A stretch of DNA of 52,845 nt from Patescibacteria group bacterium. Its GTDB lineage: Bacteria > Patescibacteriota > Minisyncoccia > GCA-002772825. Position 1 is the first letter of the stretch. Each line of letters starts with the position of its first letter. The notes beneath the pieces were generated by a model. That model was not told the DNA's origin and did no database searches. It saw only the letters and a list, made by a program, of their open reading frames with translations. The DNA is taken from positions 1 through 52,845 of the forward strand of contig JANLHB010000021.1 of assembly GCA_024654625.1 (NCBI GenBank), read 5' to 3'. This document shows positions 3,125 through 44,611 of the stretch, one piece after another. Made by a program: the position numbers and the translations under genes.

Positions 3125-3280
3125 TTATATCCATATTACAAGATTTATGCTCACTGCACCACTTCTGACATTTCCCTGCCTGCCGGCAGGCAGGTCCGCC
3201 CATTCTTTGTCTTCATATTCATAACCGCACTGCTCGCACTGATATAATTCTTTATCATCTTTTTTTATTATTTTTACCAT
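3125..3280 (-). pseudogene. Small Cys-rich (zinc-ribbon-like) ORF interrupted by the 20-bp palindrome
   Basis: The ATG is at 3280. As found it reads MVKIIKKDDKELYQCEQCGYEYEDKEWAD-LPAGRQ-GNVRSGAVSINLVIWI*. Removing 3175-3194 restores ...KEWAEKCQKWCSEHKSCNMDIIKHGNPK*, ending at 3102 and overlapping the dsbA-like start. Confidence 0.5.
3175..3194. repeat. 20-bp perfect palindrome CCTGCCTGCCGGCAGGCAGG (copy in the small Cys ORF)
   Basis: Exact self-complementary 20-mer read directly. Confidence 0.95.
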
Positions 3281-3337
3281 AATAATTATTATTTACTAAT
3301 TAATCTGATAAATAACTACAAACTAAATATTGTTACT

Positions 3338-4252
3338 TTACACTCCGCAACTGCCACCGCCTTGGATCTTTACAGGCTCAACATCAGATAGGACTTGCCT
3401 ATACCCCGCTCCGCTTGAGTAAAGTTCGCCCAAGACTTCCTTTGCGTCAACCTGAGACCAAGCCACTCCCCGCTTCTTAAAATATTTGGCGATAGTTAAG
3501 TATGTCTCCGGAAACCAATAAGAATTCACTACGAGCGCCGTCTGATACATCTCTTCTTCCGTGGCTCCATTTGAGGCCATAAGCTCCAAGAGGCCAAGCA
3601 TCGCCATACCATGATTGCAGTCAGGAAAATAAGTTGAATTCCCGCAACACGGACGATAGATATTCTTTGACACGCGCTCTACAAGAGCCTGCTCTCGTGC
3701 GTCCAACACCACAAACTTATATTTACTATAATGATCCATCGCATCGCCTTGCGCGATACTCCACCCGCCCGTTGAAGCAAAACCGCCTGCCCCGCCATAA
3801 CGATGGTCCATCATAGGACCTTCTTCAAGAATCGGGTTCTTATTTGAGAGACCGAAAGCCCAAGTAAGATTTAGTATCACACTGGCATTCTCCGGAGTGA
3901 TTTTAATATTGCCGTTATTCTCTCCGTAAAGAAGCACTTTCTCATCGTCGCTCAATCCGCCTCTGTTGGCATATAAAGATTCGAATTTCTCGGCATCTAT
4001 TACGCCACTTTCCATCATCTCTTTCCCTATTGAACCCCAAGCAATTGGTAAGACAACCCCGTCCTGAGGTAAGACTTCTGCCACTGGAACAGCTGACAAA
4101 TCAGAAGAGATATCTATATCTTGTTGTTCTTTCTTTTTATCTGCGCCATTTACCTGGCCCACAACAATAAAGACCAAAAATGCCAACACTAATATATTCC
4201 AGATTGGTCCTTTAAACTTTTCTTCTGACTGCTCTTCTTTTTTGTTTGTCAT
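3338..4252 (-). CDS. Hypothetical membrane-anchored exported protein with a Cys cluster
   Basis: 304-aa ORF with an N-terminal TM helix and the motif RPCCGNSTYFPDCNHG. No family recognised. Confidence 0.6.
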   Translation of the reverse strand: MTNKKEEQSEEKFKGPIWNILVLAFLVFIVVGQVNGADKKKEQQDIDISSDLSAVPVAEVLPQDGVVLPIAWGSIGKEMMESGVIDAEKFESLYANRGGLSDDEKVLLYGENNGNIKITPENASVILNLTWAFGLSNKNPILEEGPMMDHRYGGAGGFASTGGWSIAQGDAMDHYSKYKFVVLDAREQALVERVSKNIYRPCCGNSTYFPDCNHGMAMLGLLELMASNGATEEEMYQTALVVNSYWFPETYLTIAKYFKKRGVAWSQVDAKEVLGELYSSGAGYRQVLSDVEPVKIQGGGSCGV

Positions 4253-4260
4253 TTTATTTT

Positions 4261-4353
4261 AGCCAGTAGTTTTTAGTCGTTAGCCACTAGTGATAACACT
4301 AGTGATAATATAATTTAATCCTATTGGCTAGTGACTAATGGCTAGTCGCTAAT
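4261..4353. repeat. CTAG-rich, stop-rich intergenic repeat block
   Basis: Perfect tandem CACTAGTGATAA x2 (4285-4308). CTATTGGCTAG (4321-4331) is the reverse complement of 36256-36266. CTAATGGCTAGTCGCTAA (4335-4352) is 17/18 identical to 16494-16511. Confidence 0.8.
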
Positions 4354-4359
4354 TTATTA

Positions 4360-4914
4360 TTAATTTTTAATCTCTACAAAGATCTTGAACTCCATCTCGC
4401 TATTGTCCGGATCATTTGTCGGGACAAAAATTGAACGGAAGAAACGGCCTTGCGGCTCCTCATGAAAATTCGGGTCAAAAAACACAGTCAACGTTACGCT
4501 TTCGCCTGTAGGTATTTCCTCTTTATCTACTTTAGCTGTGGTACAACCACAAGAAGTGGTAATATCACCCGCCTTAATCTTGAGCACACCTTCCCCTTCA
4601 TTTTTGATCATAAAATCAGTGTTTACTATTCCATTCTTCTTTTCTATAACTCCAAAATCAAACTCCCCCTCGCCGACCTCGACGATTGGCAAAAGTCCGG
4701 AAAGATTATCACTAGTCGCCGATCCGCTATTCCTCTTTAATAATCTTTTTACTCCGGCGTTTGCTTCATCTACCTCATCATCCAAGTGCGCGATCATATT
4801 TTCAGTTTTTATCAAACGTGACTGTATATCATATATGACAAAGCCGAAGGCAACGATAGCCACGATCACTACAACCGGCATATATACATGAATTTTTGCT
4901 ATATAATTTTTCAT
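4360..4914 (-). CDS. DUF1573 domain-containing membrane-anchored protein
   Basis: 184 aa with a TM helix, then FDFGVI...F.IKNEGEGVL.I......CGCTTAKV, typical of DUF1573. Confidence 0.75.
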   Translation of the reverse strand: MKNYIAKIHVYMPVVVIVAIVAFGFVIYDIQSRLIKTENMIAHLDDEVDEANAGVKRLLKRNSGSATSDNLSGLLPIVEVGEGEFDFGVIEKKNGIVNTDFMIKNEGEGVLKIKAGDITTSCGCTTAKVDKEEIPTGESVTLTVFFDPNFHEEPQGRFFRSIFVPTNDPDNSEMEFKIFVEIKN

Positions 4915-4919
4915 ATTTT

Positions 4920-5432
4920 TTACTTTATTACGTCCGCCTCAAAGACGACCTCTAACTTTGGTTTTGCCTGAGAATTAGTCTCAAGATAGACAACCCTCTT
5001 CACTTTGCCTGTTCCATCCGGACCATGAGCCGCCGGATCAAACACTGCTTCAAGCGCCACAGACCCACCCGGAAGAATCTCTATATTAGCTTCTTCTATT
5101 GGTCCGTGACCTTGCATGCCATACTCGCCGTGCCTCTTTCCACCTTCTTCTATGACAGAAGCAGTGGTACACATGCAAGAAGTATAAACCTTGCTTATCA
5201 TTACAGGCTCATTGCTTTCATTTTTAACTTCAAAATTGTGTGAGACATTGCCGTCTGCCATAGAGATAGTGCCGAAGTCATAATTTTCCTCCAAGATATT
5301 TAAGACGCCTGCCGAATAAGCCAAAGGATTGCTATTATTCACAGTTTTACCGCCGGATAACAACGCCATTGCAACCACAAGGCCGATAACAACTGCCACC
5401 CCCGCTACATAAGTCACTAAATTTTTATTCAT
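4920..5432 (-). CDS. DUF1573 domain-containing membrane-anchored protein (paralog)
   Basis: 170 aa with a TM helix, then YDFGTISM..VSHNFEVKNESNEPVMISKVYTSCMCTTASV. Confidence 0.75.
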   Translation of the reverse strand: MNKNLVTYVAGVAVVIGLVVAMALLSGGKTVNNSNPLAYSAGVLNILEENYDFGTISMADGNVSHNFEVKNESNEPVMISKVYTSCMCTTASVIEEGGKRHGEYGMQGHGPIEEANIEILPGGSVALEAVFDPAAHGPDGTGKVKRVVYLETNSQAKPKLEVVFEADVIK

Positions 5433-5517
5433 ATTTTTATTTTAAATTAAAAGACCGAGTAATAAATTAAACCGGCAATCTTCAAAAATAGGCTAAATTA
5501 AACTATCCTTAAAGATA

Positions 5518-5916
5518 TTATGCCAGCAAAGACAAAAGATAATCTCCTTTATTTAGAAGAGCAAGCCATGAAATAAAATCCTCAAGAGGATTAAACTTAA
5601 TATATTTATCAGGCCTGAAATTAAAACAATATTTATCCGTTAAAAAAACAGTAGAGACCGCAAGGAGGACAGCTAAAAACAATACCGAAAGTAACGCTGA
5701 AAAACTTACTGTAATAAATGACGCGGATATCATCTTGAATCCCGCTAGATGATGCGCTAGTAGGACTATGGCATTTGTGTCAGGAGAGCAACTTCCACCA
5801 AGCATCTGAAATAACGGACACTCAGCATGAATGATTTCGCTCATATACAAAAACCCAAAAACACCTGAAGTGATCAGAAAAATTATAATAAGAAATGGCA
5901 GAAGTTTAGATTTCAT
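5518..5916 (-). CDS. Hypothetical polytopic membrane protein (Cys/His-containing)
   Basis: 132-aa ORF with 3 predicted hydrophobic helices plus ECPLF..GGSC and AHH motifs. Confidence 0.55.
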   Translation of the reverse strand: MKSKLLPFLIIIFLITSGVFGFLYMSEIIHAECPLFQMLGGSCSPDTNAIVLLAHHLAGFKMISASFITVSFSALLSVLFLAVLLAVSTVFLTDKYCFNFRPDKYIKFNPLEDFISWLALLNKGDYLLSLLA

Positions 5917-5944
5917 ATTAAATCCATTGTATCAGTAAAATCGA

Positions 5945-6151
5945 TTAATAAATACCCTCCAAAGTCGCGCTGTAGTTTGAAAGAAATGACGGCACGATAA
6001 ACAGCAAGGCAACAAGTGGCAAGATAAACACCGCAAGAGTTATAATAAGCGTCCAAAGAAAGTATTTTCTCGTCTTTTCTACAGACTTATATATTTCATT
6101 TATCTTCTGGTCGCTTTCTTCCAACTTCTTTAGAATCTCATTTTCCATCAA
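5945..6151 (-). CDS. Small hypothetical membrane protein
   Basis: 68-aa ORF with a single long hydrophobic helix, on the same strand as its neighbours. Confidence 0.45.
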   Translation of the reverse strand: MMENEILKKLEESDQKINEIYKSVEKTRKYFLWTLIITLAVFILPLVALLFIVPSFLSNYSATLEGIY

Positions 6152-6189
6152 CTTATTATACTAGATACTCTCTTGTCATTCAACCAACA

Positions 6190-7173
6190 TTATTCGTCTG
6201 TCTCATCTTCTATCTCCCCCATGATCTGTTCCAAAATATCTTCCATAGTCACTAATCCTATAATCTCACTCGGGTCTCCGTCTTTATGTGCAAGATACAT
6301 ATGGACTTGATTTTTGTTCATAAGCCTGAAGAGTCTTTCAATCTTCATAGTCTCAGACACTGCATCCACAGGAGAGATAAAATCCTTAACAGCCCTGTCT
6401 CTCTCGTCTGAATTAAGCGCCTTCATTATCTGATTTACGTGTATATATCCTATTATTTTATCTTCATCATTGTCTTCATAAACAGGGAAACGAGAAAAGC
6501 CTGAATGAGACACAAAATAAGCAACCTGCTCCACCGGCGCCTCGCCATTTAACATATCCATCTTATACTTCGATGTCATTATCTCACCCACAGATACATC
6601 ATCAAATTTAAACACATTTTCTATCATCTCATGCTCACTGTAATCTATCGCTCCATTCTCTACTCCAAGTCTTGCCATCGTTCTAATCTCTTCTTCAGTA
6701 ATGCCGACAGGCGGTTTTATTTTAAAAATTTTATTTAATAATTTATTAAGCCTTAAAAGAATAAAAGCTATCGGGAAAAATACTATATACAATAAATAAA
6801 CAGGCCATGCAAACAAAAGAGCTATTCTTTCATTATGACTGTAGGCAAAAGATTTCGGCACAATCTCGCCGAAAATAAGAATTAGGATAGTCACTCCGCC
6901 CGTTGCCACGCCTAAGGCCGCGGAGCCGAAAAATCTTGTAGCCACTATTGTGGCATAAGCGGCAGTAAAGAGATTTACCACATTATTCCCTATAAGTACG
7001 GTTATAAGGAGACGTTGGGGCTTTGATTTAAGTTTTTCTATAATAGAAGCATTCTTTCTCTTTTTCTCCTGCATCATTCTAACCCTGCTCTGATGAAGGC
7101 TGAAAAAAGCAGTTTCAGACGCAGAAAAAAAAGCCGATAGGGCAATCAAAAGGATAAATAAGGCGATTTCCAT
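6190..7173 (-). CDS. CNNM/DUF21 plus CBS-pair transporter-like protein (TlyC/CorC family, short form)
   Basis: 327 aa. The N-terminus FSASETAFFSL is typical of DUF21 and is followed by a CBS pair. No obvious C-terminal CorC_HlyC domain. Confidence 0.8.
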   Translation of the reverse strand: MEIALFILLIALSAFFSASETAFFSLHQSRVRMMQEKKRKNASIIEKLKSKPQRLLITVLIGNNVVNLFTAAYATIVATRFFGSAALGVATGGVTILILIFGEIVPKSFAYSHNERIALLFAWPVYLLYIVFFPIAFILLRLNKLLNKIFKIKPPVGITEEEIRTMARLGVENGAIDYSEHEMIENVFKFDDVSVGEIMTSKYKMDMLNGEAPVEQVAYFVSHSGFSRFPVYEDNDEDKIIGYIHVNQIMKALNSDERDRAVKDFISPVDAVSETMKIERLFRLMNKNQVHMYLAHKDGDPSEIIGLVTMEDILEQIMGEIEDETDE

Positions 7174-7312
7174 TTATTAACTATAATATCATATTTTAGG
7201 AAAATAGACATAAATACTAAAGTAAATACTAATTTATATGTAAACTATAGATATAGTATATTGGCTATAAAAAACTGGATTTTAGGCTAAATTTATGTTA
7301 AAAATTAAACAT

Positions 7313-7386
7313 TGCGGGATCATCTAATGGTAGGATGCGACCCTCTGGAGGTTGTCATCTAGGTTCGAGTCCTAGTCCCGCAGCCA
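7313..7386 (+). tRNA. tRNA-Gln (anticodon CUG)
   Basis: Hand fold: acceptor TGCGGGA/TCCCGCA (U1-A72), discriminator G, encoded CCA, anticodon loop CTCTGGA, T arm CTAGG-TTCGAGT-CCTAG. Confidence 0.9.
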
Positions 7387-7431
7387 CCATATGCTAAATC
7401 AGGTGACTGACACGCATCAGGTTCTATTGGG

Positions 7432-7460
7432 GATTGTTAAACACCGAGTGTTTAACAATC
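7432..7460. repeat. TTGTTARACAC palindrome family, copy a (13-bp perfect stem)
   Basis: GATTGTTAAACAC-CGA-GTGTTTAACAATC. Confidence 0.9.
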
Positions 7461-7514
7461 TGACATAATAGTCACTAGACGCTTCGATGAAACAATATAA
7501 ATTAAATCTAATCC

Positions 7515-8528
7515 ATGAAAAAAATTAAATTATCTTACATTACAGGATTAAGGGATATCGTCTTAAAGGAGATAGGTAAAAATAAAGATTTCCATGTATT
7601 CAAAGAGTGCCCTGATTCTGTCTATCTGGATAATATAGAAGACCTCGATAATATTAGAAAGTTAAGAAGTGTCGCTCGCGCGTATATTGTATTGCAAGAC
7701 ACTAGATACAACCCTCGTCATATTTCCAATCATAAATCTGTTCTAGGTAGTCTTATAGATGTAATTATTTCTAACGATGAGAGCGAGTTTAAAACTTTCA
7801 AAATTACTTGCGCCGGATCATACTCCCCGGAAGCTCGCTCTATTGCTAAATACATACAGGATACATATCAAATTATAGAAAAAGAAAAGGCTGACTTAAA
7901 GATACATATTATAAAACAAGACGATGTATGGGAAATTGGTATCCAAATTACTCCGCGCCCGCTCTCTCTACGAGAATATAAGGTGAGAAATATGAGCGGG
8001 GCTATGGATCCCACTGCCTCTTATGCCGTGAATTCATTTTGTGCGTTAGATAAAGCAAAAACTTATCTAAATGTTTTTTCCGGTAGCGCCACACTGCTTA
8101 TTGAAGCGGGTCAGTCTTACCCAAACTTGGAAGATCTGGTCGGCTTTGATAACAATAAAAAACATCTTTCTCTAGCGATACAAAATATCAAGAAAGCCGG
8201 ATTGATTAAAAAGATTAAGGTTAAAGAAGCAGATATTTATGACAAGCCCGACTTTGGAAAGTTCGATGCGATAACATCTGACCTGCCGTTTGGTATGTCT
8301 ATATCTAAAGATGAAGATCTAGAGAAGTTGTATAGAAGTTTTATCAAGTATTGCCAAGAGGCGTTAAACCCAAACGGGAGATTGGTGGTCTATACAAGCG
8401 AATATGAGACACTAGAGAAAGTTCTTCAAAAATCGAGATTTAAAATAACGAAAAGTCTGGAACTAAAATTCATGACATCAGTAGATGCTTATCTTCGACC
8501 AAAGATTTTTGTATGTAGATTAAAATAA
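7515..8528 (+). CDS. Class I SAM-dependent RNA methyltransferase, THUMP/Trm14-RlmL-like
   Basis: 337 aa. FSGSATLLIEAG resembles the SAM motif (cf. GSGTLLIEA), and SDLPFG sits at the DPPY/DPPFG-type catalytic motif. Confidence 0.55.
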   Translation: MKKIKLSYITGLRDIVLKEIGKNKDFHVFKECPDSVYLDNIEDLDNIRKLRSVARAYIVLQDTRYNPRHISNHKSVLGSLIDVIISNDESEFKTFKITCAGSYSPEARSIAKYIQDTYQIIEKEKADLKIHIIKQDDVWEIGIQITPRPLSLREYKVRNMSGAMDPTASYAVNSFCALDKAKTYLNVFSGSATLLIEAGQSYPNLEDLVGFDNNKKHLSLAIQNIKKAGLIKKIKVKEADIYDKPDFGKFDAITSDLPFGMSISKDEDLEKLYRSFIKYCQEALNPNGRLVVYTSEYETLEKVLQKSRFKITKSLELKFMTSVDAYLRPKIFVCRLK

Positions 8529-8531
8529 TTT

Positions 8532-8606
8532 ATGAAAACAATGATTAAAATCTACTTAGCGCGACATGGCCAAAATATAGATAATATTGAAGAAAACAGT
8601 TGTTAG
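8532..8606 (+). pseudogene. 24-codon remnant of a histidine phosphatase (phosphoglycerate mutase family) gene
   Basis: MKTMIKIYLARHGQNIDNIEENSC* carries the N-terminal RHG catalytic motif. The stop lies inside the palindrome at 8600-8624. Confidence 0.4.
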
Positions 8607-8624
8607 ACACCCGGTGTCTAACAA
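8600..8624. repeat. TTGTTARACAC palindrome family, copy b (11-bp perfect stem)
   Basis: TTGTTAGACAC-CCG-GTGTCTAACAA. Confidence 0.9.
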
Positions 8625-16493: not shown

Positions 16494-16513
16494 CTAATGG
16501 CTAGTGGCTAAAT
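16494..16513. repeat. CTAG-rich motif copy forming the last codons and stop of prfB
   Basis: CTAATGGCTAGTGGCTAAAT. Its reverse complement encodes ..LATSH*. 17/18 identical to 4335-4352. Confidence 0.8.
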
Positions 16514-17396
16514 CTTGCTCCGCCTCTATGAATTCATCTAATCCTCCGTCTAAAACCTTTTCTACATCACGTTCCTCTACTCCCGTACGATGATCTTTTA
16601 CAAGCTTATATGGGTGAAAGACATAAGACCTGATCTGGCTTCCCCATTCAGGAGAAACTTCTTTGCTTATTTTCATCAAAGCCATCTCTTTATCCTTCTC
16701 ATCTTCTATCAATTTATATATCTTAGCCCTTAACATATTGAGAGCTCTTTCTTTGTTCTGCGCCTGAGAACGTTCCGTCTCACAGTGTACTGCGAGTTTC
16801 GTCGGTATATGCACGACCCTTACCGCCGTCTCTCTCTTATTAACATTTTGCCCTCCGGCGCCTGAACTTCTGGCAAATTCATATCTGATATCCTTCTCTG
16901 GAATATCCATATCGCCCTTATCAACAATAACAGGCACAACCTCAAGCAAAGCAAAAGAAGTATGCCTGAGCTTCTTAGCTGAAAATGGCGATATTCTCAC
17001 AAGCCGATGAACTCCTTGTTCTTTTTTTAATTTACCATAAGCGCCACTGCCCGTAACTTCAAAAGTAATATTTTTATAACCCTGCCTGCCGGCAGGCAGG
17101 CGCCTCTCAGCACCTTCGTGCTTGTGAATTATTTTAAGCGACCAACCTTTCTTCTCAATATATTTAGAATACATATCAAAAAGGATCCTTGTCCAATCTT
17201 CCGCATCGTCTCCACCGGCGCCGGAAAATAAGGTGAGTAAAGCGCCCCCTTTATCGTATTTGCCAAGTCCGGAAAGTTTATCCTTAAGCTCGTTTAATTC
17301 TTTGATTATGTCTTGCGCTTTCGCTTTATCGTCCCAGAAATTAGGCTCCTGCATACTCCTCTCAATATTTTCTATTCTTTCTTTAATTTCGCTCAT
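16494..17396 (-). CDS. prfB: Peptide chain release factor 2, short form, no programmed frameshift
   Basis: 300 aa with the SPF tripeptide (RISPFSA) and GGQ (SGAGGQNVNK). It is a single uninterrupted ORF and carries an in-frame LPAGRQ palindrome. Confidence 0.9.
   Translation of the reverse strand: MSEIKERIENIERSMQEPNFWDDKAKAQDIIKELNELKDKLSGLGKYDKGGALLTLFSGAGGDDAEDWTRILFDMYSKYIEKKGWSLKIIHKHEGAERRLPAGRQGYKNITFEVTGSGAYGKLKKEQGVHRLVRISPFSAKKLRHTSFALLEVVPVIVDKGDMDIPEKDIRYEFARSSGAGGQNVNKRETAVRVVHIPTKLAVHCETERSQAQNKERALNMLRAKIYKLIEDEKDKEMALMKISKEVSPEWGSQIRSYVFHPYKLVKDHRTGVEERDVEKVLDGGLDEFIEAEQDLATSH
17081..17100. repeat. 20-bp perfect palindrome CCTGCCTGCCGGCAGGCAGG (copy inside prfB)
   Basis: Exact 20-mer, read on the minus strand as R-LPAGRQ-G. 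Confidence 0.95.
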
Positions 17397-34420: not shown

Positions 34421-34453
34421 CTACGGATGTCTACGGATGTCGCACTTCCGTAG
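34421..34453 (-). repeat. REP copy (1 mismatch) with a 10-nt partial duplication
   Basis: CTACGGATGT + CTACGGATGTCGCACTTCCGTAG. It is the reverse orientation of the 23-nt REP found at 43478 and 43970. Confidence 0.85.
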
Positions 34454-38054: not shown

Positions 38055-38071
38055 AACTAAATATTAACATA

Positions 38072-40129
38072 TTATCCTAAAATTTCCAGAAATTCCTCTT
38101 CATTTATAGTCTTCACGCCAATCTTCTTAGCCTTGTCATATTTTGAGCCAGGGTCGCTACCATAGACGACAAAATCGGTATTCTTAGAGACTGACTCTGA
38201 CACTTCTCCCCCCAGCTGTTTAATCATCTTCTTCGCTTCATCCCGACTCATCTTACTAAGAGAGCCCGTCAACACAAACTTAAGCTTTTTAAGTTTGGCT
38301 CCTTTTACTTGAGTCTGTTTTTTGATCATCACTCGAGGGAGGAGCTTCTTTAAAAATCTTTTATTATCATTATCTCTAAACCAATCATATATGCTTCTTG
38401 CCACAATAGGCCCAACATCAGAAACTTTTTCCAATTCTTGAATAGAAGCCTTTTCTAAATTTTCAATAGTATGAAAACTCTCGGCTAAATCTTCGGCAGT
38501 GCTTTCTCCCACATTCTCTATTCCTAGAGAAATTATAAATCTTGAGAAATCTATTTCCCTGCGGGAATTTATCGCTTTAATGAGGTTCTTTGCCGACTTT
38601 TCAGCAAAGCGTTCTAATGGCGTTATATCTCCCTCTTTTAGATCAAAAAAATCAGCCGCATCCTGTACCAAATTATTATCTAAAAGGGCATCTATTATCT
38701 TAGGACCAAGTCCCTCTATATCAAACGCCTTCTTAGAAGCAAAATAATAAAGGCCCCTTCTGTGGCGCGTAGCGCATTTCTTGTTATGGCATTTTGCGAT
38801 AGGGCTATCTTTTAAAAATACTACTTTCGACTTGCAGATAGGACAGACATTTGGCATTTTAAATAGCTTCTCTTTCCCTGTCCTCATCTCTTTTATAACG
38901 CTCACTATATCAGGGATAATGTCTCCCGCCTTCTGCAAAATAACAGTATCACCAATACGAACATCAAGTCTTTTTATCTCATCCTCATTATGAAGCGTGG
39001 CTCTTGATACTACAGAACCGGCAATAGTCACCGGCCTTAAGTGGGCAACCGGAGTCAAGGCGCCAGTCCTCCCAACTTGCACATCAATATCTTCTACAAC
39101 TGTCGTTGCCTGCTCAGCCGGAAACTTCAAAGCGACGGCAAAACGAGGGGCCTTACCTGTATAACCCAGTCGTTCCTGCCACTCTGAATTGTTTAATTTA
39201 ACAACAACGCCGTCAATCCAATACTTTGTCTTATCTTTTTTCTTTTGCCAAACACGCCAAAAATCTACAACCTCTTCAATATTTTTACATAATTTAAAAT
39301 GCGGATTTACTTTAAATCCTAACTCTTTAAGAAAGCTAAGCTCTTCAATCTGAGTCTCTGGAACCTCAATCCCTACGGACGTCGCATGTCCGTAGTCTAA
39401 CCAAGCCAGATCGTATATAAAGCTATCAAGTTTGCGCGAAGAAGCAATCTTCGGGTCAAGCTGGCGAATAGAGCCGGCGGCGGCATTTCGCGGGTTGGCA
39501 AACAACTGTTCCCCCTTCCTTCCCCTTTCCTTATTAAGATTTTCAAATTCATCTTTTCCCATCCAGATCTCGCCTTCCACAATGCAATCAACATCTTTAT
39601 TTAGATGAAGAGGAATCGACTCTATGGTCTTAACGTTAGCTGTCACATCCTCGCCCACCTTTCCATCACCACGCGTTGCCGCAGTTTTTAATATCCCTCT
39701 CTCATAAGTAAGGATAATTTTAAAACCGTCAATCTTAAGCTCCGAGACATATTCAAGTCCTTTGGCTATCGGGTAACCAAATTCTTTATCAAGCAGGCGC
39801 TTAACTCGATTATCAAATTCCCTTATTTCGTCTTCATTAAACACGTCATTAAAAGACCATTGTGTCACCTTATGATGAATTTTCTTAAATTTTTCAAGCG
39901 GTTTTCCTCCCACTCTCTGTGTCGGAGAGTCGGTAGTTATGAGATCAGGGAAAGACTGCTCCAGCTCATAAAGCTCGTGCTTTAGAGAATCAAGCGCCGC
40001 TTCAGTTATCTCTTGCTTATCAAGCACATGATAAAGATACCTGTGATGGTTTATTAATTTTTTAAGCTTCTCTATCCGCTCTTTTGCTTTAGAGTATCTT
40101 TCTTCCGCGTCAATTTTTTTCTCAAACAT
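38072..40129 (-). CDS. ligA: NAD-dependent DNA ligase
   Basis: 685 aa with the adenylation motif ELKIDG, a 4-Cys zinc finger (CPICKS..CHNKKC), HhH and a C-terminal BRCT. Confidence 0.95.
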   Translation of the reverse strand: MFEKKIDAEERYSKAKERIEKLKKLINHHRYLYHVLDKQEITEAALDSLKHELYELEQSFPDLITTDSPTQRVGGKPLEKFKKIHHKVTQWSFNDVFNEDEIREFDNRVKRLLDKEFGYPIAKGLEYVSELKIDGFKIILTYERGILKTAATRGDGKVGEDVTANVKTIESIPLHLNKDVDCIVEGEIWMGKDEFENLNKERGRKGEQLFANPRNAAAGSIRQLDPKIASSRKLDSFIYDLAWLDYGHATSVGIEVPETQIEELSFLKELGFKVNPHFKLCKNIEEVVDFWRVWQKKKDKTKYWIDGVVVKLNNSEWQERLGYTGKAPRFAVALKFPAEQATTVVEDIDVQVGRTGALTPVAHLRPVTIAGSVVSRATLHNEDEIKRLDVRIGDTVILQKAGDIIPDIVSVIKEMRTGKEKLFKMPNVCPICKSKVVFLKDSPIAKCHNKKCATRHRRGLYYFASKKAFDIEGLGPKIIDALLDNNLVQDAADFFDLKEGDITPLERFAEKSAKNLIKAINSRREIDFSRFIISLGIENVGESTAEDLAESFHTIENLEKASIQELEKVSDVGPIVARSIYDWFRDNDNKRFLKKLLPRVMIKKQTQVKGAKLKKLKFVLTGSLSKMSRDEAKKMIKQLGGEVSESVSKNTDFVVYGSDPGSKYDKAKKIGVKTINEEEFLEILG

Positions 40130-40136
40130 TTTAAAA

Positions 40137-40634
40137 TTAATAACTAGCTTGCAATACGCGTTCTACCTGTAATTTGCCTGGGTCAGCTGTACAACTTGAA
40201 CCGACATTTCCGATATTATAACCGTAAGATATCAGCTTTGTATTCGGCGGGGAATCTTTATATACCTCAATTTGAGCGCAAGATCCATTACTAAAACCTA
40301 AATAAAAAGTGGTGGTGGAAGCTACCATAGACCCGCTTATAGGCGACCCGAGACAATTAATATCATAATTTGGCTTATCAAATTCTTTCTTTTTTATATC
40401 CCAATACAGAGCGCATTCTATACCGGCATCAGAAGCGGTAAAAGCCCTGCTTGACTCTCGGCTGATCTGGGATATTTTAAACTGTCTAACCACTATATTA
40501 TATATACCCAAAGAAGCTGACAAGATTATAGTCAAAATAAGAAGAGAAAAAAGAAGAGTAAACCCCTGCCTGCCGGTAAGCAGGCGCTTTAAATTAATCT
40601 TTGATAAATTTTTTAATTTATTATTCATAATCAT
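40137..40634 (-). CDS. Prepilin-like minor pilin lacking Glu5
   Basis: 165 aa with leader ..RLLTGRQG/FTLLFSLLIL and a degenerate palindrome at 40565-40584. Confidence 0.6.
   Translation of the reverse strand: MIMNNKLKNLSKINLKRLLTGRQGFTLLFSLLILTIILSASLGIYNIVVRQFKISQISRESSRAFTASDAGIECALYWDIKKKEFDKPNYDINCLGSPISGSMVASTTTFYLGFSNGSCAQIEVYKDSPPNTKLISYGYNIGNVGSSCTADPGKLQVERVLQASY
40565..40584. repeat. Degenerate copy of the 20-bp palindrome
   Basis: CCTGCCTGCCGGTAAGCAGG. Confidence 0.8.
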
Positions 40635-40637
40635 TTA

Positions 40638-41195
40638 TTATGGATGCCAATCAAAGATATGATCCTCCCATATAAAAGAGCGATTGCCAAACTTATCCTC
40701 CCACGATACAGTTATTGAAATTCTAGCTTCTCGATCAGAAACATCTTTTTCTAGAGTAAATTTTCGCATAAAAATAGTATTAATACCGGTTGAATGATTA
40801 TATTTTTTTAATGTATCATCATATTTAAGAAGTGGGCATGATCCGGCGCAATTTGTTATTGCCGCACCGGAAACATCCCAAGGGATAGTAGTATCAAGAT
40901 AACAATCAGAATTGTTACAACTATTAAGTTTAAAAAGCCAATTTTCACTATTTAAATAATTATTATCCCTCCAATTCTTAATATATTCCATAGCATCCTG
41001 AGCTAAAAAAGACGCAATTACATTATTCTTAGACAAAGTAGACATCTTAATACTATAAGTAGCTAAAGATATCGGCCCCAGTATGGCAAAAGTAATGATA
41101 GTAAGCGCAACCATTGTTTCAATCAAAGTAAACCCTTGCCCGCCAGCGGGCAAGCGCACTTTTACTCTATTTGTTTTTTTTAATTTATTATTCAT
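40638..41195 (-). CDS. Type IV minor pilin (prepilin-type N-terminal cleavage/methylation domain)
   Basis: 185 aa with leader ..RLPAGGQG/FTLIETMVAL. Confidence 0.75.
   Translation of the reverse strand: MNNKLKKTNRVKVRLPAGGQGFTLIETMVALTIITFAILGPISLATYSIKMSTLSKNNVIASFLAQDAMEYIKNWRDNNYLNSENWLFKLNSCNNSDCYLDTTIPWDVSGAAITNCAGSCPLLKYDDTLKKYNHSTGINTIFMRKFTLEKDVSDREARISITVSWEDKFGNRSFIWEDHIFDWHP
41135..41154. repeat. Sequence-divergent but still self-complementary version of the palindrome
   Basis: CTTGCCCGC-CA-GCGGGCAAG, at the same position in the pilin leader (LPAGGQ). Confidence 0.8.
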
Positions 41196-41211
41196 AATAT
41201 TTAATTCTTAA

Positions 41212-41742
41212 TTAGGAATCCGGCGCAAGTTGAGATACAGAAGCTTGCAACTCAATCTTTGATTGTTCTTTCTCTTTTACACCGGAAGAAGCGGAAAGAT
41301 TAATCCTCACTATAGGCTGAAAATTATCGCCTGAAGATTCGCCTCTTAAATCAAAGGCGAGAGAATCTATGCTAATTTTAGAATCTGTCAGAGGAAATTC
41401 ATTTACCCCATCCGACCTTATTAACTGATTACCAGATAATTGATAAGTAATATTCTCAAGCCTCGCATTTATAAATGAGAATGTATCTCCTGTGGAAGAA
41501 TAATTATCCCCTGTCCTGATCTCTCTTGACATTGCATCCAGGGCGAAATTTAAATTATCCGAAACAGATCTAAATGATTCAATCTTTTTTTGCGCGTCAT
41601 TTATATTTAAAATGGACTCCATCGCCATCGTCATAACAACAGTAAAGACAGCTATTGCGACTATCATCTCAAGTATCGTGAATCCCTGCCTGCCGGCAGG
41701 CAGGCTTTTACTATTATTTATTTTTTTAAATTTATTATTCAT
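41212..41742 (-). CDS. Type IV minor pilin
   Basis: 176 aa with leader ..SLPAGRQG/FTILEMIVAI. Confidence 0.75.
   Translation of the reverse strand: MNNKFKKINNSKSLPAGRQGFTILEMIVAIAVFTVVMTMAMESILNINDAQKKIESFRSVSDNLNFALDAMSREIRTGDNYSSTGDTFSFINARLENITYQLSGNQLIRSDGVNEFPLTDSKISIDSLAFDLRGESSGDNFQPIVRINLSASSGVKEKEQSKIELQASVSQLAPDS
41685..41704. repeat. 20-bp perfect palindrome CCTGCCTGCCGGCAGGCAGG (pilin leader)
   Basis: Exact 20-mer. Confidence 0.95.
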
Positions 41743-41745
41743 ATT

Positions 41746-42375
41746 TTACTCAGCTTCAACGCTAACCTGCCCGCTTTTCCAGACAATAACCTTCACACCG
41801 TTTGCAGTCTCTCCCGCCGACCTAAACAATATCATCGTATCAGAAATAGCATCGTCATCATTTATATTCGCATATATACTGGAACGCTTATAAATAACAT
41901 CTGCCGTATTCACGCTTCCGGCGCCTGGACAGGCAAACGGTGAGGTTATTTTCTGATTTATGCATATCTGCTTTATTCTGTCGGAAGATTGAACTTTAAA
42001 AATCTCCTCTTCTTCTCCTACTGTATAATTATTGTCAGCATTACTATCTGAAAAAATAATAACAGTATCAGGAAGCGCCATATCAAAATGAACACCATAA
42101 GCCACCGACGATCCCGGTCCTGAAATAATCTTGTTGCTTATTCCATAAGCCTGAGCCTCTCTTATAATTGAAACTATTTCTTGAGTGACTCCTTCAAGCT
42201 TTATCTTTTTATTGAAAGTCGTATAATTTGCCAAAATTACAGTTGTTACCATGACCATAATACCGACAGAAACGATAAGCTCAATAAGGGTAAACCCCTG
42301 CCTGCCGATAGGCATGGTCTGCCTGCCTTGCGATTTCAATCTTTTTTTTAATAAATTAAGGAGATGAGAAACCAT
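41746..42375 (-). CDS. Type IV minor pilin
   Basis: 209 aa with leader ..SQGRQTMPIGRQG/FTLIELIVSV. Confidence 0.75.
   Translation of the reverse strand: MVSHLLNLLKKRLKSQGRQTMPIGRQGFTLIELIVSVGIMVMVTTVILANYTTFNKKIKLEGVTQEIVSIIREAQAYGISNKIISGPGSSVAYGVHFDMALPDTVIIFSDSNADNNYTVGEEEEIFKVQSSDRIKQICINQKITSPFACPGAGSVNTADVIYKRSSIYANINDDDAISDTMILFRSAGETANGVKVIVWKSGQVSVEAE
42297..42327. repeat. Degenerate palindrome with an extra half-copy
   Basis: CCTGCCTGCC-GATAGGCATGGT-CTGCCTGCC. Confidence 0.7.
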
Positions 42376-42395
42376 ATCTATTATCTAATTTTACA

Positions 42396-43172
42396 TTAAA
42401 AGAACACAAACTCCAACAACCTTTCTCCGAACAAAAACCCTATAAATGTCCCCGCAATGAGCAATGGTCCAAAAGCAATCTTGCTCTTAAGCCCGAGTCT
42501 TTTACTGAAGATAAAAAATAATCCGACAACAGCCCCGATCCAGAAAGAAAGTATTATTGATGCCAACCCAACCCAAAAACCTAAGAGCCACCCTATACCA
42601 AGTGAAAGCTTGGCATCGCCAAGCCCCATCCATTTACCTTTTGAGAAAAACCAGAACAAAGCAAAAAATAAGAAAAAGATAATCCCACCTATAAAATCCC
42701 AAAGGACGGTCCTTTGTGAAATAAATAAGCTTAAAAAAGATAAAATAATAAAAGCATAAACTAAGCCGTCAGGGATTATCTGATGATAAAAATCATAAAC
42801 AGCGATCACTATCAATAAGCTGAAAATTCCCCAGAAATATATAGCGAAGAATGCCATCTGACCCTCAAATTGGAAACCGAGTCTCCAAGTAATGGTATAC
42901 CAAGTAAGAGCAAAGACGACCCCTGTTAAAACTTCAACGATAGGATACTGAGCAGAAATTTTTGAACCGCATTTCCTGCACTTTCCATTCTGCGCGATAA
43001 AACTAAATACAGGGATAAGCTCGTACCACAAAAGAGTTTTACCACAAGAAAAACATTTTGACCTTCCCTTAAACATTGATTCGCCAGTATTGTAACGGGC
43101 AATCACCACATTTAGGAAACTCCCTATAATAGTGCCGAAAATAAAAACAAAAAAATAAATTAAAGTTTCCAT
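42396..43172 (-). CDS. pilD: Prepilin peptidase / N-methyltransferase (A24 family)
   Basis: N-terminal GSFLNVVIARY, a Cys pair (CFSCGK..CRKCGS), the Asp motifs VYDFYHQIIPD and GLGDAKL. Start METLIYFF (43172) is preferred to the track start at 43241. Confidence 0.85.
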   Translation of the reverse strand: METLIYFFVFIFGTIIGSFLNVVIARYNTGESMFKGRSKCFSCGKTLLWYELIPVFSFIAQNGKCRKCGSKISAQYPIVEVLTGVVFALTWYTITWRLGFQFEGQMAFFAIYFWGIFSLLIVIAVYDFYHQIIPDGLVYAFIILSFLSLFISQRTVLWDFIGGIIFFLFFALFWFFSKGKWMGLGDAKLSLGIGWLLGFWVGLASIILSFWIGAVVGLFFIFSKRLGLKSKIAFGPLLIAGTFIGFLFGERLLEFVFF

Positions 43173-43290
43173 AAAATATATTTTAACATAAAATCCCGCC
43201 AAAAGCGGAATAAAATTTCTACTTATCAATTTTACGGGCACCTATCAACTTTGTGACCTTATGACTTTGTGACTTTACGTACGGTGTGCT

Positions 43291-43313
43291 TTACGGACGT
43301 CGCACTTCCGTAG
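43291..43313 (-). repeat. REP copy upstream of the RAYT gene (inverted orientation)
   Basis: TTACGGACGTCGCACTTCCGTAG, preceded by the partial duplication CTTTACGTACGG. Confidence 0.9.
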
Positions 43314-43325
43314 TAGAATAAAGAT

Positions 43326-43967
43326 ATGGAAAATAATATATTTCATGTCATAAATAGAGGTGTAGAAAAAAGAAAAATCTTCCTTCATGATAAAGACTAT
43401 CTTCGTTTTAGTCACAACATCAAAGACTTTAATACTATTAAAAATGTTCCCTCTTACTTCAACCGCCGTATTCATAACTACGGAAGTGCGACGTCCGTAG
43501 AAGAAGAGTTAGTTGATGTTCTCTGTTGGTGCTTAATGCCTAATCATTCTCACATGATAACTATCAATAAAATTGATATGGGTACAAGCTTTTTTTCTAA
43601 AAAAATATTTGGAGGATATACGAAATATTTTAATAAAGAAAATAAAAGAAGCGGTGTTTTATTTCAAGGAAGATCTAAAATAATCCCAATAGAAAAGGAT
43701 GAGCACTTACTACATCTGCCTTTTTATATTCATTCAAATCCTCTTAATTTACTTCAACCAAACTGGAAAGAGACCGGTATTAAAGACATTAAAAAGGCGC
43801 TTAAATTTTTAGAAAAATATCGTTGGTCAAGCTATTTAGATATAATAGGAAAAGAAAATTTTCCTGATACAACTAACAAAAAACTTTTTTATGAAATATT
43901 TGACACTAATGAAAAGAGATATAAAAAAGACTTTGAAGACTGGCTATCTAGTTTTAATTTTAATTAA
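43326..43967 (+). mobile_element. IS200/IS605-like Y1 (HUH) transposase of the REP-associated tyrosine transposase (RAYT) type
   Basis: 213 aa with HVINRGVEKRKIF, the HUH motif CLMPNHSHMI and a Tyr motif FYIHSNP. It is flanked by inverted REP copies. Confidence 0.8.
43478..43500 (+). repeat. REP copy inside the RAYT coding sequence (in frame)
   Basis: CTACGGAAGTGCGACGTCCGTAG is 23/23 identical to 43970-43992 and encodes ..N-YGSATSV-E.. between the N-terminal motif and the HUH motif. Confidence 0.95.
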
Positions 43968-43969
43968 GT

Positions 43970-43992
43970 CTACGGAAGTGCGACGTCCGTAG
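43970..43992 (+). repeat. REP copy 2 nt after the RAYT stop
   Basis: CTACGGAAGTGCGACGTCCGTAG (stem CTACGGA/TCCGTAG). Confidence 0.95.
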
Positions 43993-44007
43993 AATTAATA
44001 TATACAT

Positions 44008-44044
44008 ACAACATAAATCCCGCTTTTGGCGGGATTTATGTTGT
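44008..44044. terminator. Bidirectional hairpin terminator (16-bp stem, AATCCCGC core)
   Basis: ACAACATAAATCCCGC-TTTTG-GCGGGATTTATGTTGT, between the convergent RAYT and pilA genes. Confidence 0.75.
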
Positions 44045-44062
44045 AAAACTAAATTATTTAGT

Positions 44063-44611
44063 TTATGGTGTCACATCATAACATCCATCGTCTGTGCCCG
44101 CTGCAGAACAGTCAGCTCCTTGTCCATTAAATGTATATGTACTATCAGCATCACTACCAAGGACAGAATGTCCGCCAGTGCCAACAAGACCTGTTCCATC
44201 TTGCTCTAGATTAGCGCCTAAATGATAAAAATTACAAACACCGGTTGCTATAGCACAGACAGCTCCGGCAGAAGTCACATTGTCATAAGAATATATAGCT
44301 CCAGTACTTGGATCCTTAGGTTCAGCAGGAATAAAGCCGTCAGTAACAAGTTGAGCTACAGTATCTGGATACTCTGAACCATTACTATCAGCAAAAAGTT
44401 CAAGAGCTAATTGGACCTGCTTTATATCAGAAACTCTTTTAGCATCACGAGATTTCTGCCTTGCGCTGTTTAGTGAGGCAAGTACCACTGATGAAAGAAT
44501 ACCGATGATCGCAATAACGACCAGAAGTTCAATCAAAGTAAAACCCTGCCTACCGGCAGGCAGGCTCTTTGAACTGATTTTAAATTTATTTTTTAACATA
44601 TTATTTTTCAT
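44063..44611 (-). CDS. pilA: Type IV major pilin (PilA-like)
   Basis: 182 aa with leader MKNNMLKNKFKISSKSLPAGRQG/FTLIELLVVIAIIGILSSVVLASL; it is monocistronic behind a long structured leader. Confidence 0.8.
   Translation of the reverse strand: MKNNMLKNKFKISSKSLPAGRQGFTLIELLVVIAIIGILSSVVLASLNSARQKSRDAKRVSDIKQVQLALELFADSNGSEYPDTVAQLVTDGFIPAEPKDPSTGAIYSYDNVTSAGAVCAIATGVCNFYHLGANLEQDGTGLVGTGGHSVLGSDADSTYTFNGQGADCSAAGTDDGCYDVTP
44545..44564. repeat. 20-bp palindrome, 1 mismatch (pilA leader)
   Basis: CCTGCCTACCGGCAGGCAGG. Confidence 0.9.

What the first reader, a model, noticed from the sequence alone, without database searches (positions are those of the whole stretch)
3175..44564. A stop-free 20-bp perfect palindrome (CCTGCCTGCCGGCAGGCAGG) recurs inside seven ORFs and is always read as LPAGRQ
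Copies:
- Perfect: 3175-3194, 17081-17100, 41685-41704.
- One mismatch: 44545-44564.
- Degenerate: 40565-40584 and 42297-42327.
- A variant with a different sequence that is still perfectly self-complementary: 41135-41154.

Every copy lies inside a minus-strand ORF: five prepilin-like genes, prfB and a small Cys-rich ORF. Every copy is translated in the same frame (L-P-A-G-R/G-Q). The 20-mer has no stop codon in any of its frames. Being its own reverse complement, it encodes the same peptide whichever way it is inserted.

A GC-only-core 20-mer recurring in an AT-rich genome cannot be chance. It behaves like an intragenic palindromic element that coding regions tolerate. It could instead be a DNA or RNA signal under selection. 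Its centre is GCCGGC/CCGG. A protein-binding or uptake-signal-like role in an organism with T4P plus ComFC is pure speculation.
Basis: partly seen in the sequence, partly recalled or inferred. Interest (0 to 1): 0.8.

Follow-up and report, generated by a model that had tools for sequence, protein, structure and literature searches.

The report
Tiny mobile 20-base palindrome in genes
The repeated 20-base palindrome is a miniature piece of selfish DNA that inserts itself precisely into genomes of many unrelated bacterial phyla, is a regular part of a small nuclease gene cassette that sits in tRNA genes, and in this window has landed in seven genes, breaking one of them.

Summary
CCTGCCTGCCGGCAGGCAGG occurs three times exactly and four times in decayed form; none are expected by chance. 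It is not a conserved peptide or an uptake signal. It is a discrete 20-nt insertion.

- **Small ORF:** deleting exactly the 20-mer restores a conserved 52-aa zinc-ribbon protein, so this copy frameshifts the gene.
- **prfB and pilins:** the closest orthologues lack the insert. The in-frame LPAGRQ reading comes from a 20-nt insertion inside a Gly codon plus a +1 compensation just upstream.
- **Distribution:** the identical 20-mer is found in Patescibacteria, Bacteroidota, Omnitrophota, Planctomycetota and other phyla, in cultured isolates, and in IMG/VR contigs. Two control palindromes gave zero hits. The flanks are unrelated and there is no target duplication.
- **Cassette link:** of 75 metagenomic loci retrieved only by similarity to a small SLX1/UPF0213-like GIY-YIG nuclease, 28 carry the exact 20-mer and 11 a near copy. 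It sits 13-51 nt upstream of the nuclease gene, interrupting a duplicated 5' tRNA fragment.

Which enzyme mobilises the element is inferred, not shown. I found no prior description. The window also holds a separate REP/RAYT system with in-frame copies inside genes.

The parts
3175..3194 (.). Exact 20-mer. A precise 20-nt insertion that frameshifts a DUF7128-like zinc-ribbon gene.
   Evidence: One search gives the exact match. Deleting exactly these 20 nt restores a 52-aa protein that is 87% identical over 100% of its length to P0121 and aligns through EWAEKCQKWCSEHKSCN with 10 homologues. The DUF7128 match lengthens from profile positions 1-28 to 1-37.
3102..3280 (-). Disrupted small zinc-ribbon gene. 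As it stands, the ORF at 3125-3280 reads ...EWA-DLPAGRQ-GNVRSGAVSINLVIWI*, whose tail is out of frame.
   Evidence: The end coordinate of the restored gene is computed from 52 codons plus the stop codon plus the 20-nt insert.
17081..17100 (.). Exact 20-mer inside prfB (16494-17396, minus strand), read as R-LPAGRQ-G in a variable loop of RF2.
   Evidence: The 14 nearest RF2 homologues (84-94% identity) lack 7 residues here. DNA comparison with L299 shows the insertion inside a Gly codon (G|GT) plus one extra base 10-20 nt upstream. In the alignment to solved RF2 structures the extra residues fall in a gap.
40565..40584 (.). Decayed copy (2 mismatches) in the leader of pilin-like ORF 40137-40634, read as LLTGRQ-G|FTLLF.
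   Evidence: The orthologue in L166 carries a different decayed copy; the orthologue in L167 has none.
41135..41154 (.). Old variant copy CTTGCCCGCTGGCGGGCAAG in the leader of pilin-like ORF 40638-41195 (LPAGGQ-G|FTLIE). It has five changes, two of them compensated pairs.
   Evidence: DNA hairpin -8.4 kcal/mol. The orthologues in L164 and L167 lack it; L166 has a 2-mismatch copy.
41685..41704 (.). Exact 20-mer in the leader of pilin-like ORF 41212-41742 (SLPAGRQ-G|FTILE).
   Evidence: The closest orthologue P0133/L164 (89% identity) is exactly 7 residues shorter and lacks it. The insertion is at G|GG of the Gly(-1) codon, with a +1 base upstream.
42297..42327 (.). Decayed copy (3 mismatches, 42297-42316) plus a right-arm half copy (42319-42327) in the leader of pilin-like ORF 41746-42375.
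   Evidence: The L164 orthologue has a different decayed copy (TTACCTGCTGGTAGGCATG). L166 and L167 have none.
44545..44564 (.). Copy with 1 mismatch in the leader of the major pilin-like ORF 44063-44611 (SLPAGRQ-G|FTLIE).
   Evidence: The orthologues in L166 and L167 lack it.

Best explanation
**What it is.** The 20-mer is a miniature, non-autonomous mobile DNA element: a perfect palindrome that is inserted as an exact 20-nt unit with no target-site duplication.

**Shown.**
- The insertions are precise.
- Presence and absence vary between close relatives at every site in the window.
- Copies in many bacterial phyla and in viral contigs are nearly identical, which suggests they are young.
- One palindrome can be nested inside another.
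- The element is a regular component of a small cassette. The cassette's order is: a 5' tRNA fragment interrupted by the palindrome, then an SLX1/UPF0213-like GIY-YIG nuclease gene of about 80 aa, then the intact tRNA.

**The seven copies in the window.**
- They are solo copies of different ages.
- One knocked out a small zinc-ribbon gene by frameshift.
- The others persist where extra residues are harmless: pilin leader peptides, which the prepilin peptidase removes, and a variable loop of RF2.
- Each of these was inserted inside a Gly codon (G|GN) and rescued by a +1 change a few bases upstream. That combination forces the LPAGRQ-G reading.

**Inferred.**
- The cassette is the autonomous partner.
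- Its structure-specific nuclease cuts the extruded hairpin at its base and releases a 20-nt hairpin oligonucleotide. Host ligase then seals this oligonucleotide into a nick, where it bulges out of the duplex and needs no template.
- This would explain the exact length, the lack of duplication, the weak target preference and the need for a perfect palindrome.
- tRNA homology would let the cassette cross phylum boundaries.
For: **More than chance.** 0 of 100 shuffles reached any match.

**Breadth.**
- IMG/VR held 35 stretches, against 0 for a scrambled palindrome and 0 for the inside-out palindrome.
- Across 164 unique copies the flanks are unrelated, with only a weak preference for A before and T after the element. 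A few apparent 7-8-nt flank repeats lie in heptamer tandem-repeat tracts.

**Precise insertion.**
- The small ORF is restored by deleting exactly 20 nt.
- In 22 of 30 cassette-linked copies, the 12+8 nt that flank the palindrome are contiguous in the intact tRNA downstream. None of the 30 fitted a duplication or deletion model.

**Presence/absence.**
- RF2 pairs that are 99% and 98% identical outside the site differ by the insert.
- The five pilin orthologue sets show scattered presence.

**Youth and sequence definition.** In IMG/VR the centre is CCGG in 40 copies, with 6 single-base variants. No compensatory variants were seen at pairs 5-6/15-16.

**Nesting.** Seen in L018 and L042.

**Cassette link, tested in both directions.**
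- The GIY-YIG gene is the most widely shared protein neighbour within 1.5 kb of copies (5 loci) and the only one at a fixed close distance.
- Of 75 loci retrieved by GIY-YIG protein similarity alone, 28 have the exact 20-mer and 11 a near copy, 13-51 nt upstream of the match.
- Tandem arrays of the unit occur.
- The nuclease matches PF01541. Its closest solved relatives are UPF0213 proteins, then SLX1.

**Frame logic.**. In reliable long ORFs the frames are LPAGRQ 10, PACRQAG 2 and CLPAGR 1.
Against: - No GIY-YIG gene lies in the 52.8-kb window. None lies on the IMG/VR contig that has 6 copies in 29.5 kb.
- Genome-level co-occurrence of solo copies and cassettes could not be tested.
- GIY-YIG nucleases are not known to catalyse strand transfer. 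The cut-and-ligate step is therefore conjecture.
- The link could be indirect. The palindrome might prefer tRNA-like DNA and survive only in the dead tRNA fragments that cassettes create.
- In RF2 the insert is accompanied by a 10-15-nt stretch of changed sequence that is similar between lineages (GGN GCN NNN GGN CGC). This fits spread of an already-compensated allele by recombination better than five independent insertions.
- A frameshifting insertion in an essential gene needs a simultaneous rescue. I cannot explain that step.
Confidence: 0.72

Rival explanations
1. The 20-mer is a REP-like element mobilised by an HUH Y1 transposase (a RAYT or an IS200/IS605-type TnpA). These enzymes recognise DNA hairpins on single strands and insert without target duplication. 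The GIY-YIG link would then be incidental.
For: The element forms a hairpin and inserts precisely without duplication. The window encodes a RAYT-like protein at 43326-43967, and its orthologous locus L167 carries a Y1_Tnp gene. A second palindrome family in the window shows that such a system is active here and can sit in frame inside genes.
Against: The window's RAYT gene is flanked by inverted copies of a different palindrome, CTACGGAAGTGCGACGTCCGTA. Only 1 of about 160 loci with the 20-mer has even a weak RAYT homologue nearby. REP sequences differ between lineages and co-evolve with their RAYT (my own knowledge of the REP/RAYT literature), whereas this 20-mer is identical across phyla. It also lacks the GTAG-type motif.
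Confidence: 0.15
2. The palindrome is mobile by an unknown route and preferentially hits tRNA-like DNA. It is seen next to GIY-YIG genes only because those cassettes create non-essential tRNA fragments. There an insertion is harmless, and by splitting the direct repeats it also stabilises the cassette.
For: Other GC-rich palindromes occupy the same D-loop position in some cassettes (L039, L245/L246). Insertions occur in the D-loop, the anticodon loop or the T-loop. Cassettes that lie downstream of complete tRNAs carry no palindrome.
Against: Occupancy is 52%, mostly by exact and therefore apparently young copies. That would require a very high and very specific insertion rate into tRNA DNA, which would be harmful to working tRNA genes. 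Hairpin-loop targeting in general is weak: 14.8% against 9.3% for controls. Presence of the palindrome follows GIY-YIG clades.
Confidence: 0.2
3. The sequence is kept by selection for a function of its own, either as the peptide LPAGRQ or as a DNA/RNA signal (uptake sequence, operator, mRNA hairpin).
For: All five pilin leaders carry it at the same position. The inserted residues recreate an R-Q-G motif before the cleavage site. The 41135 variant keeps the hairpin through two compensated changes.
Against: The nearest orthologues of every host gene lack it. One copy destroys a gene. In other genomes most copies lie in short ORFs, apparently between genes, with unrelated flanks. No compensatory variants were found among IMG/VR copies. 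Compensated changes in a palindrome can also arise without selection, by templated quasi-palindrome correction (established knowledge, not tested here).
Confidence: 0.05
4. The sequence is a sequencing adapter or an assembly artefact.
For: It is a perfect palindrome seen in many metagenome assemblies.
Against: It is present in cultured isolates sequenced by different groups. Decayed copies carry synonymous changes. Compensated in-frame copies sit in conserved genes. It holds a consistent position within a gene cassette.
Confidence: 0.01

Closest known systems
Small dispersed repeats (SDR) of cyanobacteria (Elhai and colleagues, Genome Research 2008). Recalled from memory; the paper was not held in the library.
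   Same: Very short (21-27 nt) hairpin-forming repeats. They appear mobile, are found nested within one another, and have no known transposase.
   Different: SDRs were described in cyanobacteria. Here one exact 20-mer is shared by many phyla and is tied to a GIY-YIG/tRNA cassette. I could not compare the sequences.
REP/REPIN elements with their RAYT transposases
   Same: Short palindromes that are dispersed through the genome and insert without target duplication. The window itself holds a genuine REP/RAYT pair.
   Different: The 20-mer is a perfect palindrome without the GTAG-type motif. It does not flank the RAYT gene. It is not lineage-specific.
Rickettsia palindromic elements (RPE)
   Same: Palindromic selfish DNA that is found inside protein-coding genes and is translated, usually in tolerant surface regions.
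   Different: RPEs are about 100-150 bp and restricted to Rickettsia (my own knowledge). This unit is 20 nt, so it shifts the frame and needs compensation.
Mobile GC clusters and 'byp' elements of yeast mitochondria
   Same: GC-rich palindromes that spread in AT-rich genomes, including into coding regions. The mobilising enzyme is unknown.
   Different: Those are organellar and of variable sequence, and some are skipped by translational bypassing. Here prfB and the pilins are read straight through.
Free-standing GIY-YIG homing endonuclease genes (for example T4 SegB in a tRNA gene cluster; background from PMC2988022 and my own knowledge)
   Same: A GIY-YIG nuclease gene that behaves as selfish DNA next to tRNA genes.
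   Different: The cassette nuclease is the catalytic domain only (about 80 aa), of the UPF0213/SLX1 type, with no DNA-binding domain. It comes with a duplicated tRNA fragment and a fixed palindrome.

Membership tests
REP/RAYT (REPIN) system | The cognate RAYT gene is flanked by inverted copies of the repeat. | tested here: not met
   The RAYT-like gene at 43326-43967 is flanked by CTACGGAAGTGCGACGTCCGTA and its reverse complement, not by the 20-mer.
REP/RAYT (REPIN) system | An imperfect palindrome with a conserved GTAG-type motif at its foot, and a sequence specific to the lineage. | tested here: not met
   The 20-mer is a perfect palindrome without that motif, and it is identical in many phyla.
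MITE (miniature inverted-repeat transposable element) | Terminal inverted repeats flanked by a target-site duplication. | tested here: not met
   No consistent duplication in 164 copies; the few 7-8-nt flank repeats lie in tandem-repeat tracts. 22 of 22 resolvable insertions are exact, with no duplication or deletion.
Rickettsia palindromic elements | Elements of about 100-150 bp inserted in frame in ORFs of Rickettsia. | tested here: not met
   The unit is 20 nt and shifts the frame. The host is a Patescibacteria-like genome (names of homologues).
DNA uptake sequences (DUS/USS) | Very high genomic density (about one per kb) and a sequence specific to one lineage. | tested here: not met
   There are 7 copies in 52.8 kb. 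The same sequence occurs in many phyla. Close relatives lack it at the same sites.
Cyanobacterial small dispersed repeats | Hairpin repeats of 21-27 nt that are found nested within each other. | tested here: inconclusive
   The size is similar and nesting is seen (L018, L042). The sequences could not be compared because the paper is not held. The taxa differ.
Free-standing GIY-YIG homing endonuclease cassette | Encodes a GIY-YIG catalytic domain. | tested here: met
   PF01541 at E = 3e-15 for the cassette proteins in L156 and L037. This applies to loci elsewhere. No such gene lies in the window.
Free-standing GIY-YIG homing endonuclease cassette | Site-specific cleavage of the empty target, followed by gene conversion. 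| not testable with these tools
   Needs enzyme assays.
Translational bypass ('byp') elements | The insert is skipped by the ribosome, so the frame is kept without the insert. | tested here: inconclusive
   prfB and the pilins are in frame through the insert, so no bypass is needed. For the small ORF, skipping exactly 20 nt would restore the protein. This cannot be excluded from sequence alone.

The most novel reading that the evidence does not exclude
A new kind of mobile element with two parts.
1. A tRNA-embedded cassette encodes only a minimal SLX1-like GIY-YIG nuclease.
2. A 20-nt perfect palindrome is cut out by that nuclease as a hairpin and pasted by host ligase into nicks anywhere in the genome.

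The cassette would move between phyla by recombination with conserved tRNA sequence. This would be transposition without a transposase.
Probability: 0.2. Interest if true: 0.95.

Novelty: new variant of a known kind. Interest (0 to 1): 0.8.

Why it matters
Very short mobile palindromes are known from a few lineages and from organelles, but how they move has never been settled.

- **A tractable case.** One exact 20-mer is active in many phyla. Insertion is precise. There is a single candidate partner protein of about 80 residues, which can be expressed and assayed.
- **A new route of mobility, if the link holds.** Movement would be driven by a structure-specific nuclease rather than by a transposase. 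It would also show a route by which selfish DNA crosses phylum boundaries through tRNA genes.
- **Practical value for annotation.**
  - The 20-mer explains recurrent LPAGRQ, PACRQAG and CLPAGR peptides in predicted proteins.
  - It creates frameshifts and pseudogenes.
  - It marks recent insertions that can serve as strain-level markers in metagenomes.

Tried and rejected
- **Peptide conservation.** Rejected, because orthologues lack the residues.
- **Simple paralogy of pilin leaders.** Rejected. Orthologous pilin genes in L164, L166 and L167 differ in presence and absence, and copies also lie in prfB, in the small ORF and in unrelated genomes.
- **RAYT as the mobiliser.** Its flanking repeat is a different palindrome, and RAYT genes do not recur near copies.
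- **A shared neighbouring gene.** All-against-all comparison of 2,949 ORFs within 1.5 kb of copies found only the GIY-YIG gene at a fixed close distance, in 5 loci. A four-helix-bundle gene also occurred in 5 loci and a ParB-like gene in 4, neither at a fixed distance.
- **Targeting of hairpin loops.** Only a weak enrichment: 14.8% against 9.3%.
- **Selection on structure.** No compensatory variants were found among IMG/VR copies.
- **Longer conserved element around the 20-mer.** None found; the flanks are unrelated.
- **tRNA genes that work despite the insert.** The tRNA-like hosts are duplicated 5' fragments, not working genes.
- **Known RNA families.** Rfam matched nothing at any copy.
- **Literature.** No paper in the library holds the 20-mer, its 12-nt core or the peptides, and none describes a GIY-YIG/tRNA/palindrome cassette.
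- **RF2 sites as five clean independent insertions.** Not sustained, because the adjacent stretch of changed sequence points to recombination.

Full report
**1. The observation**

CCTGCCTGCCGGCAGGCAGG occurs exactly at 3175, 17081 and 41685. It occurs with 1, 2 and 3 mismatches at 44545, 40565 and 42297. None of 100 dinucleotide-preserving shuffles gave a single match. A seventh, older copy lies at 41135 (CTTGCCCGCTGGCGGGCAAG). A right-arm half copy lies at 42319-42327.

All copies sit in minus-strand ORFs and read L-P-A-G-R/G-Q. The hosts are:
- a 51-aa Cys-containing ORF;
- prfB;
- five prepilin-like genes, in which the insert lies directly before the G|FTLIE cleavage motif.

Three qualifications apply. 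76% of coding bases in the window are on the minus strand, so the strand is uninformative. The 41135 variant has a non-palindromic centre. It keeps 9 of 10 pairs through two compensated changes, and the chance of that among five random substitutions is 0.005. As single-stranded DNA the 20-mer folds into an 8-bp hairpin with a CCGG loop at -8 kcal/mol.

**2. It is an insertion, not a conserved feature**

*Small ORF.* Removing exactly the 20 bases turns the ORF into MVKIIKKDDKELYQCEQCGYEYEDKEWAEKCQKWCSEHKSCNMDIIKHGNPK. This is 87% identical over its full length to a 52-aa protein from other assemblies. It aligns with ten homologues straight through the junction. The element is therefore a 20-nt unit that frameshifted this gene. 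The LPAGRQ reading there begins an out-of-frame tail.

*prfB.*
- The 14 closest RF2 homologues (84-94% identity) lack seven residues at the site.
- Compared with the closest one (L299), the homologous bases GAGAGG(C/A)GGTTAT are read in different frames upstream of the element.
- This shows a 20-nt insertion inside a Gly codon (G|GT) together with one extra base 10-20 nt upstream.
- In the alignment to solved RF2 structures the extra residues fall in a gap.
- Four other RF2 lineages carry R-LPAGRQ-G at the same position. Two of them have relatives that are 99% and 98% identical elsewhere but lack it.
- In these pairs the 10-15 nt upstream are also replaced. The carriers share GGN GCN NNN GGN CGC. 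I read this as spread of an already-compensated allele by recombination rather than five separate hits. This is an inference.
- One lineage (L123) has a second copy elsewhere in RF2.

*Pilins.*
- The closest orthologue of the pilin with the exact copy is 89% identical and exactly seven residues shorter.
- Across the five orthologous pilin genes in L164, L166 and L167, presence is scattered. The copies that exist are decayed in different ways.
- The DNA shows insertion at G|GG of the Gly(-1) codon, with a +1 base upstream.
- Leader peptides are cut off by the prepilin peptidase (established knowledge), so they should tolerate extra residues.
- The same position in all five genes may reflect a target preference or gene conversion between paralogues. 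I could not separate the two.

**3. The same 20-mer is everywhere**

These came from Patescibacteria lineages, Bacteroidota, Omnitrophota, Planctomycetota, Bdellovibrionota, Thermodesulfovibrionales, Elusimicrobia, Verrucomicrobia and others.
- The Bacteroidota included cultured Winogradskyella, Flagellimonas, Longitalea, Flavivirga, Aquiflexum, Agriterribacter and Aestuariivivens.
- IMG/VR holds 35 stretches. One 29.5-kb contig has six copies.
- A palindrome of the same composition and the inside-out version each gave zero hits.
- The flanks of 164 unique copies share nothing except a weak preference for A before and T after the element. There is no consistent target duplication; the few 7-8-nt flank repeats lie in heptamer tandem-repeat tracts.
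- Some copies are nested inside another copy (L018, L042).
- Copies are almost all identical. In IMG/VR the centre is CCGG 40 times against six single-base variants, and no compensated variants occur at pairs 5-6/15-16. I estimate a mean decay of about 3% per site. This suggests the copies are young and are defined by sequence, not merely by structure.
- In other genomes most copies lie in short ORFs, apparently between genes.
- In reliable long ORFs the frame is LPAGRQ 10 times, PACRQAG twice and CLPAGR once. I attribute it to selection against the Cys-containing frames and to the insertion-plus-compensation logic above (inference).

**4. The link to a tRNA/GIY-YIG cassette**

Several copies seemed to lie in tRNA genes. 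ARAGORN and inspection showed they lie in duplicated 5' tRNA fragments. The recurrent architecture is:
1. a 5' tRNA fragment interrupted by the 20-mer;
2. a GIY-YIG ORF of about 80 aa that begins 16-37 nt after the palindrome;
3. the intact tRNA, which starts within a few bases of the stop codon.

This appears in a WWE3 genome, a Chitinophagales MAG, a Saccharibacteria MAG (where only the first codons of the GIY-YIG ORF remain), a MAG labelled Gammaproteobacteria and a viral contig. In a Thermodesulfobacteriota MAG the palindrome and nuclease domain sit in frame inside an HsdS-like ORF, with no tRNA involved.

The GIY-YIG gene is the neighbour shared most widely across loci, and the only one at a fixed close distance.

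I then ran the test in the other direction.
- 75 non-redundant metagenome loci were retrieved purely by similarity to the nuclease.
- 28 carry the exact 20-mer and 11 a copy with 1-3 mismatches, 13-51 nt upstream of the protein match.
- Nearly all of these have an intact tRNA 221-311 nt downstream of the match start.
- The palindrome lies mostly in the D-loop (GGTA|GAGC). In one clade it lies in the T-loop (GGTTC|GATTCC). Occasionally it lies in the anticodon loop.
- In 22 of 30 cases the flanking 12+8 nt are contiguous in the intact copy. None fitted a duplication or deletion model.
- Some cassettes carry other GC-rich palindromes at the same place. Cassettes downstream of complete tRNAs carry none.
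- Presence of the palindrome follows nuclease clades.
- The unit can be tandemly repeated.
- The nuclease is PF01541. Its closest solved relatives are UPF0213 proteins (1ywl, 1zg2), then SLX1, a structure-specific nuclease.
- No such gene lies in this window.

**5. Mechanism**

*Shown:* precise 20-nt insertion without duplication; near-identical copies in many phyla; regular membership of the cassette.

*Inferred:*
- The cassette is the autonomous partner.
- Its nuclease cuts the extruded hairpin at its base.
- The released 20-nt hairpin is sealed by host ligase into a nick, where it needs no template.
- The cassette crosses phyla by recombination with conserved tRNA sequence.

*Rivals:*
- An HUH/RAYT-type transposase. 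The window's RAYT gene (43326-43967) is flanked by a different palindrome.
- An incidental association, in which the palindrome survives only in dead tRNA fragments and stabilises the cassette by splitting its direct repeats.

*Unexplained:* how an essential gene such as prfB survives a frameshifting insertion until it is compensated. Import of an already-compensated allele is the simplest answer.

**6. Comparison and novelty**

The closest known kinds are cyanobacterial small dispersed repeats, REP/RAYT elements, Rickettsia palindromic elements and mitochondrial GC clusters. This element differs in three ways:
- it is one exact 20-mer shared across phyla;
- it inserts with no duplication;
- it is tied to a minimal GIY-YIG/tRNA cassette.

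Rfam has nothing at these sites. Eight literature searches found no description of the sequence, the peptides or the cassette. The library lacks many subscription papers, so prior description cannot be excluded.

**7. Verdict**

I file it as a new variant of a known kind (miniature mobile palindromes). There is a one-in-five chance that it represents a new, nuclease-driven mode of mobility.

Noticed in passing
window 43326-43967 (+), with repeats at 34432-34453, 39374-39395, 43292-43313, 43478-43499 and 43970-43991: A second, unrelated palindrome system. A RAYT-like Y1 transposase gene is flanked by inverted copies of CTACGGAAGTGCGACGTCCGTA. Further copies lie in frame inside ligA (read YGHATSV) and inside the RAYT ORF itself (read YGSATSV). 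One more copy is intergenic.
   Followed up: partly
L060:3861-4200 (Thermodesulfobacteriota MAG): The 20-mer and a GIY-YIG domain lie in frame inside a 714-aa ORF that looks like a type I restriction specificity subunit. It appears that the palindrome and nuclease domain have been inserted into a protein-coding gene.
   Followed up: partly
L227:1050-1800, L254:540-1091, L272:1380-1789: Tandem arrays of the unit (tRNA fragment, palindrome, GIY-YIG gene) lie upstream of the intact tRNA. In L272 both copies share the same single mismatch, so the palindrome was duplicated together with the unit.
   Followed up: partly
L039:861-1028, L245 and L246 (upstream of 246 and 1501): A different GC-rich palindrome, CCCGCCCG...CGGGCGGG of about 32 nt, interrupts the tRNA fragment at the same D-loop position in other GIY-YIG cassettes. 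This suggests a family of such palindromes.
   Followed up: partly
L015:4017-4225 (Patescibacteria MAG): A 5' tRNA part carrying the 20-mer in its D-loop is followed by a complete tRNA-Met. After that comes what looks like the 3' part of the first tRNA, whose acceptor ends match. No GIY-YIG gene is present. The arrangement is unexplained.
   Followed up: no
L145, L152, L153 (IMGVR_UViG_3300037242_000417): A 29.5-kb contig classed as viral, about 60-66% GC, carries six exact copies and no GIY-YIG gene in the parts fetched.
   Followed up: no
L123:1771-1790 and 1828-1847: One RF2 gene carries two exact copies 57 nt apart, both read as LPAGRQ.
   Followed up: partly
window 16494-17396 (-): This RF2 and its Patescibacteria homologues are only about 290-300 aa. 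They align to solved RF2 from about residue 70 onward, so they appear to lack much of domain 1. A tRNA-Thr gene lies 95 nt upstream of the start codon.
   Followed up: no
L121:1266-1637, and L050, L102, L108, L129, L151: Small four-helix-bundle genes (23S_rRNA_IVP family) recur within 1.5 kb of copies of the 20-mer in five loci, and one lies near prfB in a sister genome. They are not at a fixed distance.
   Followed up: no
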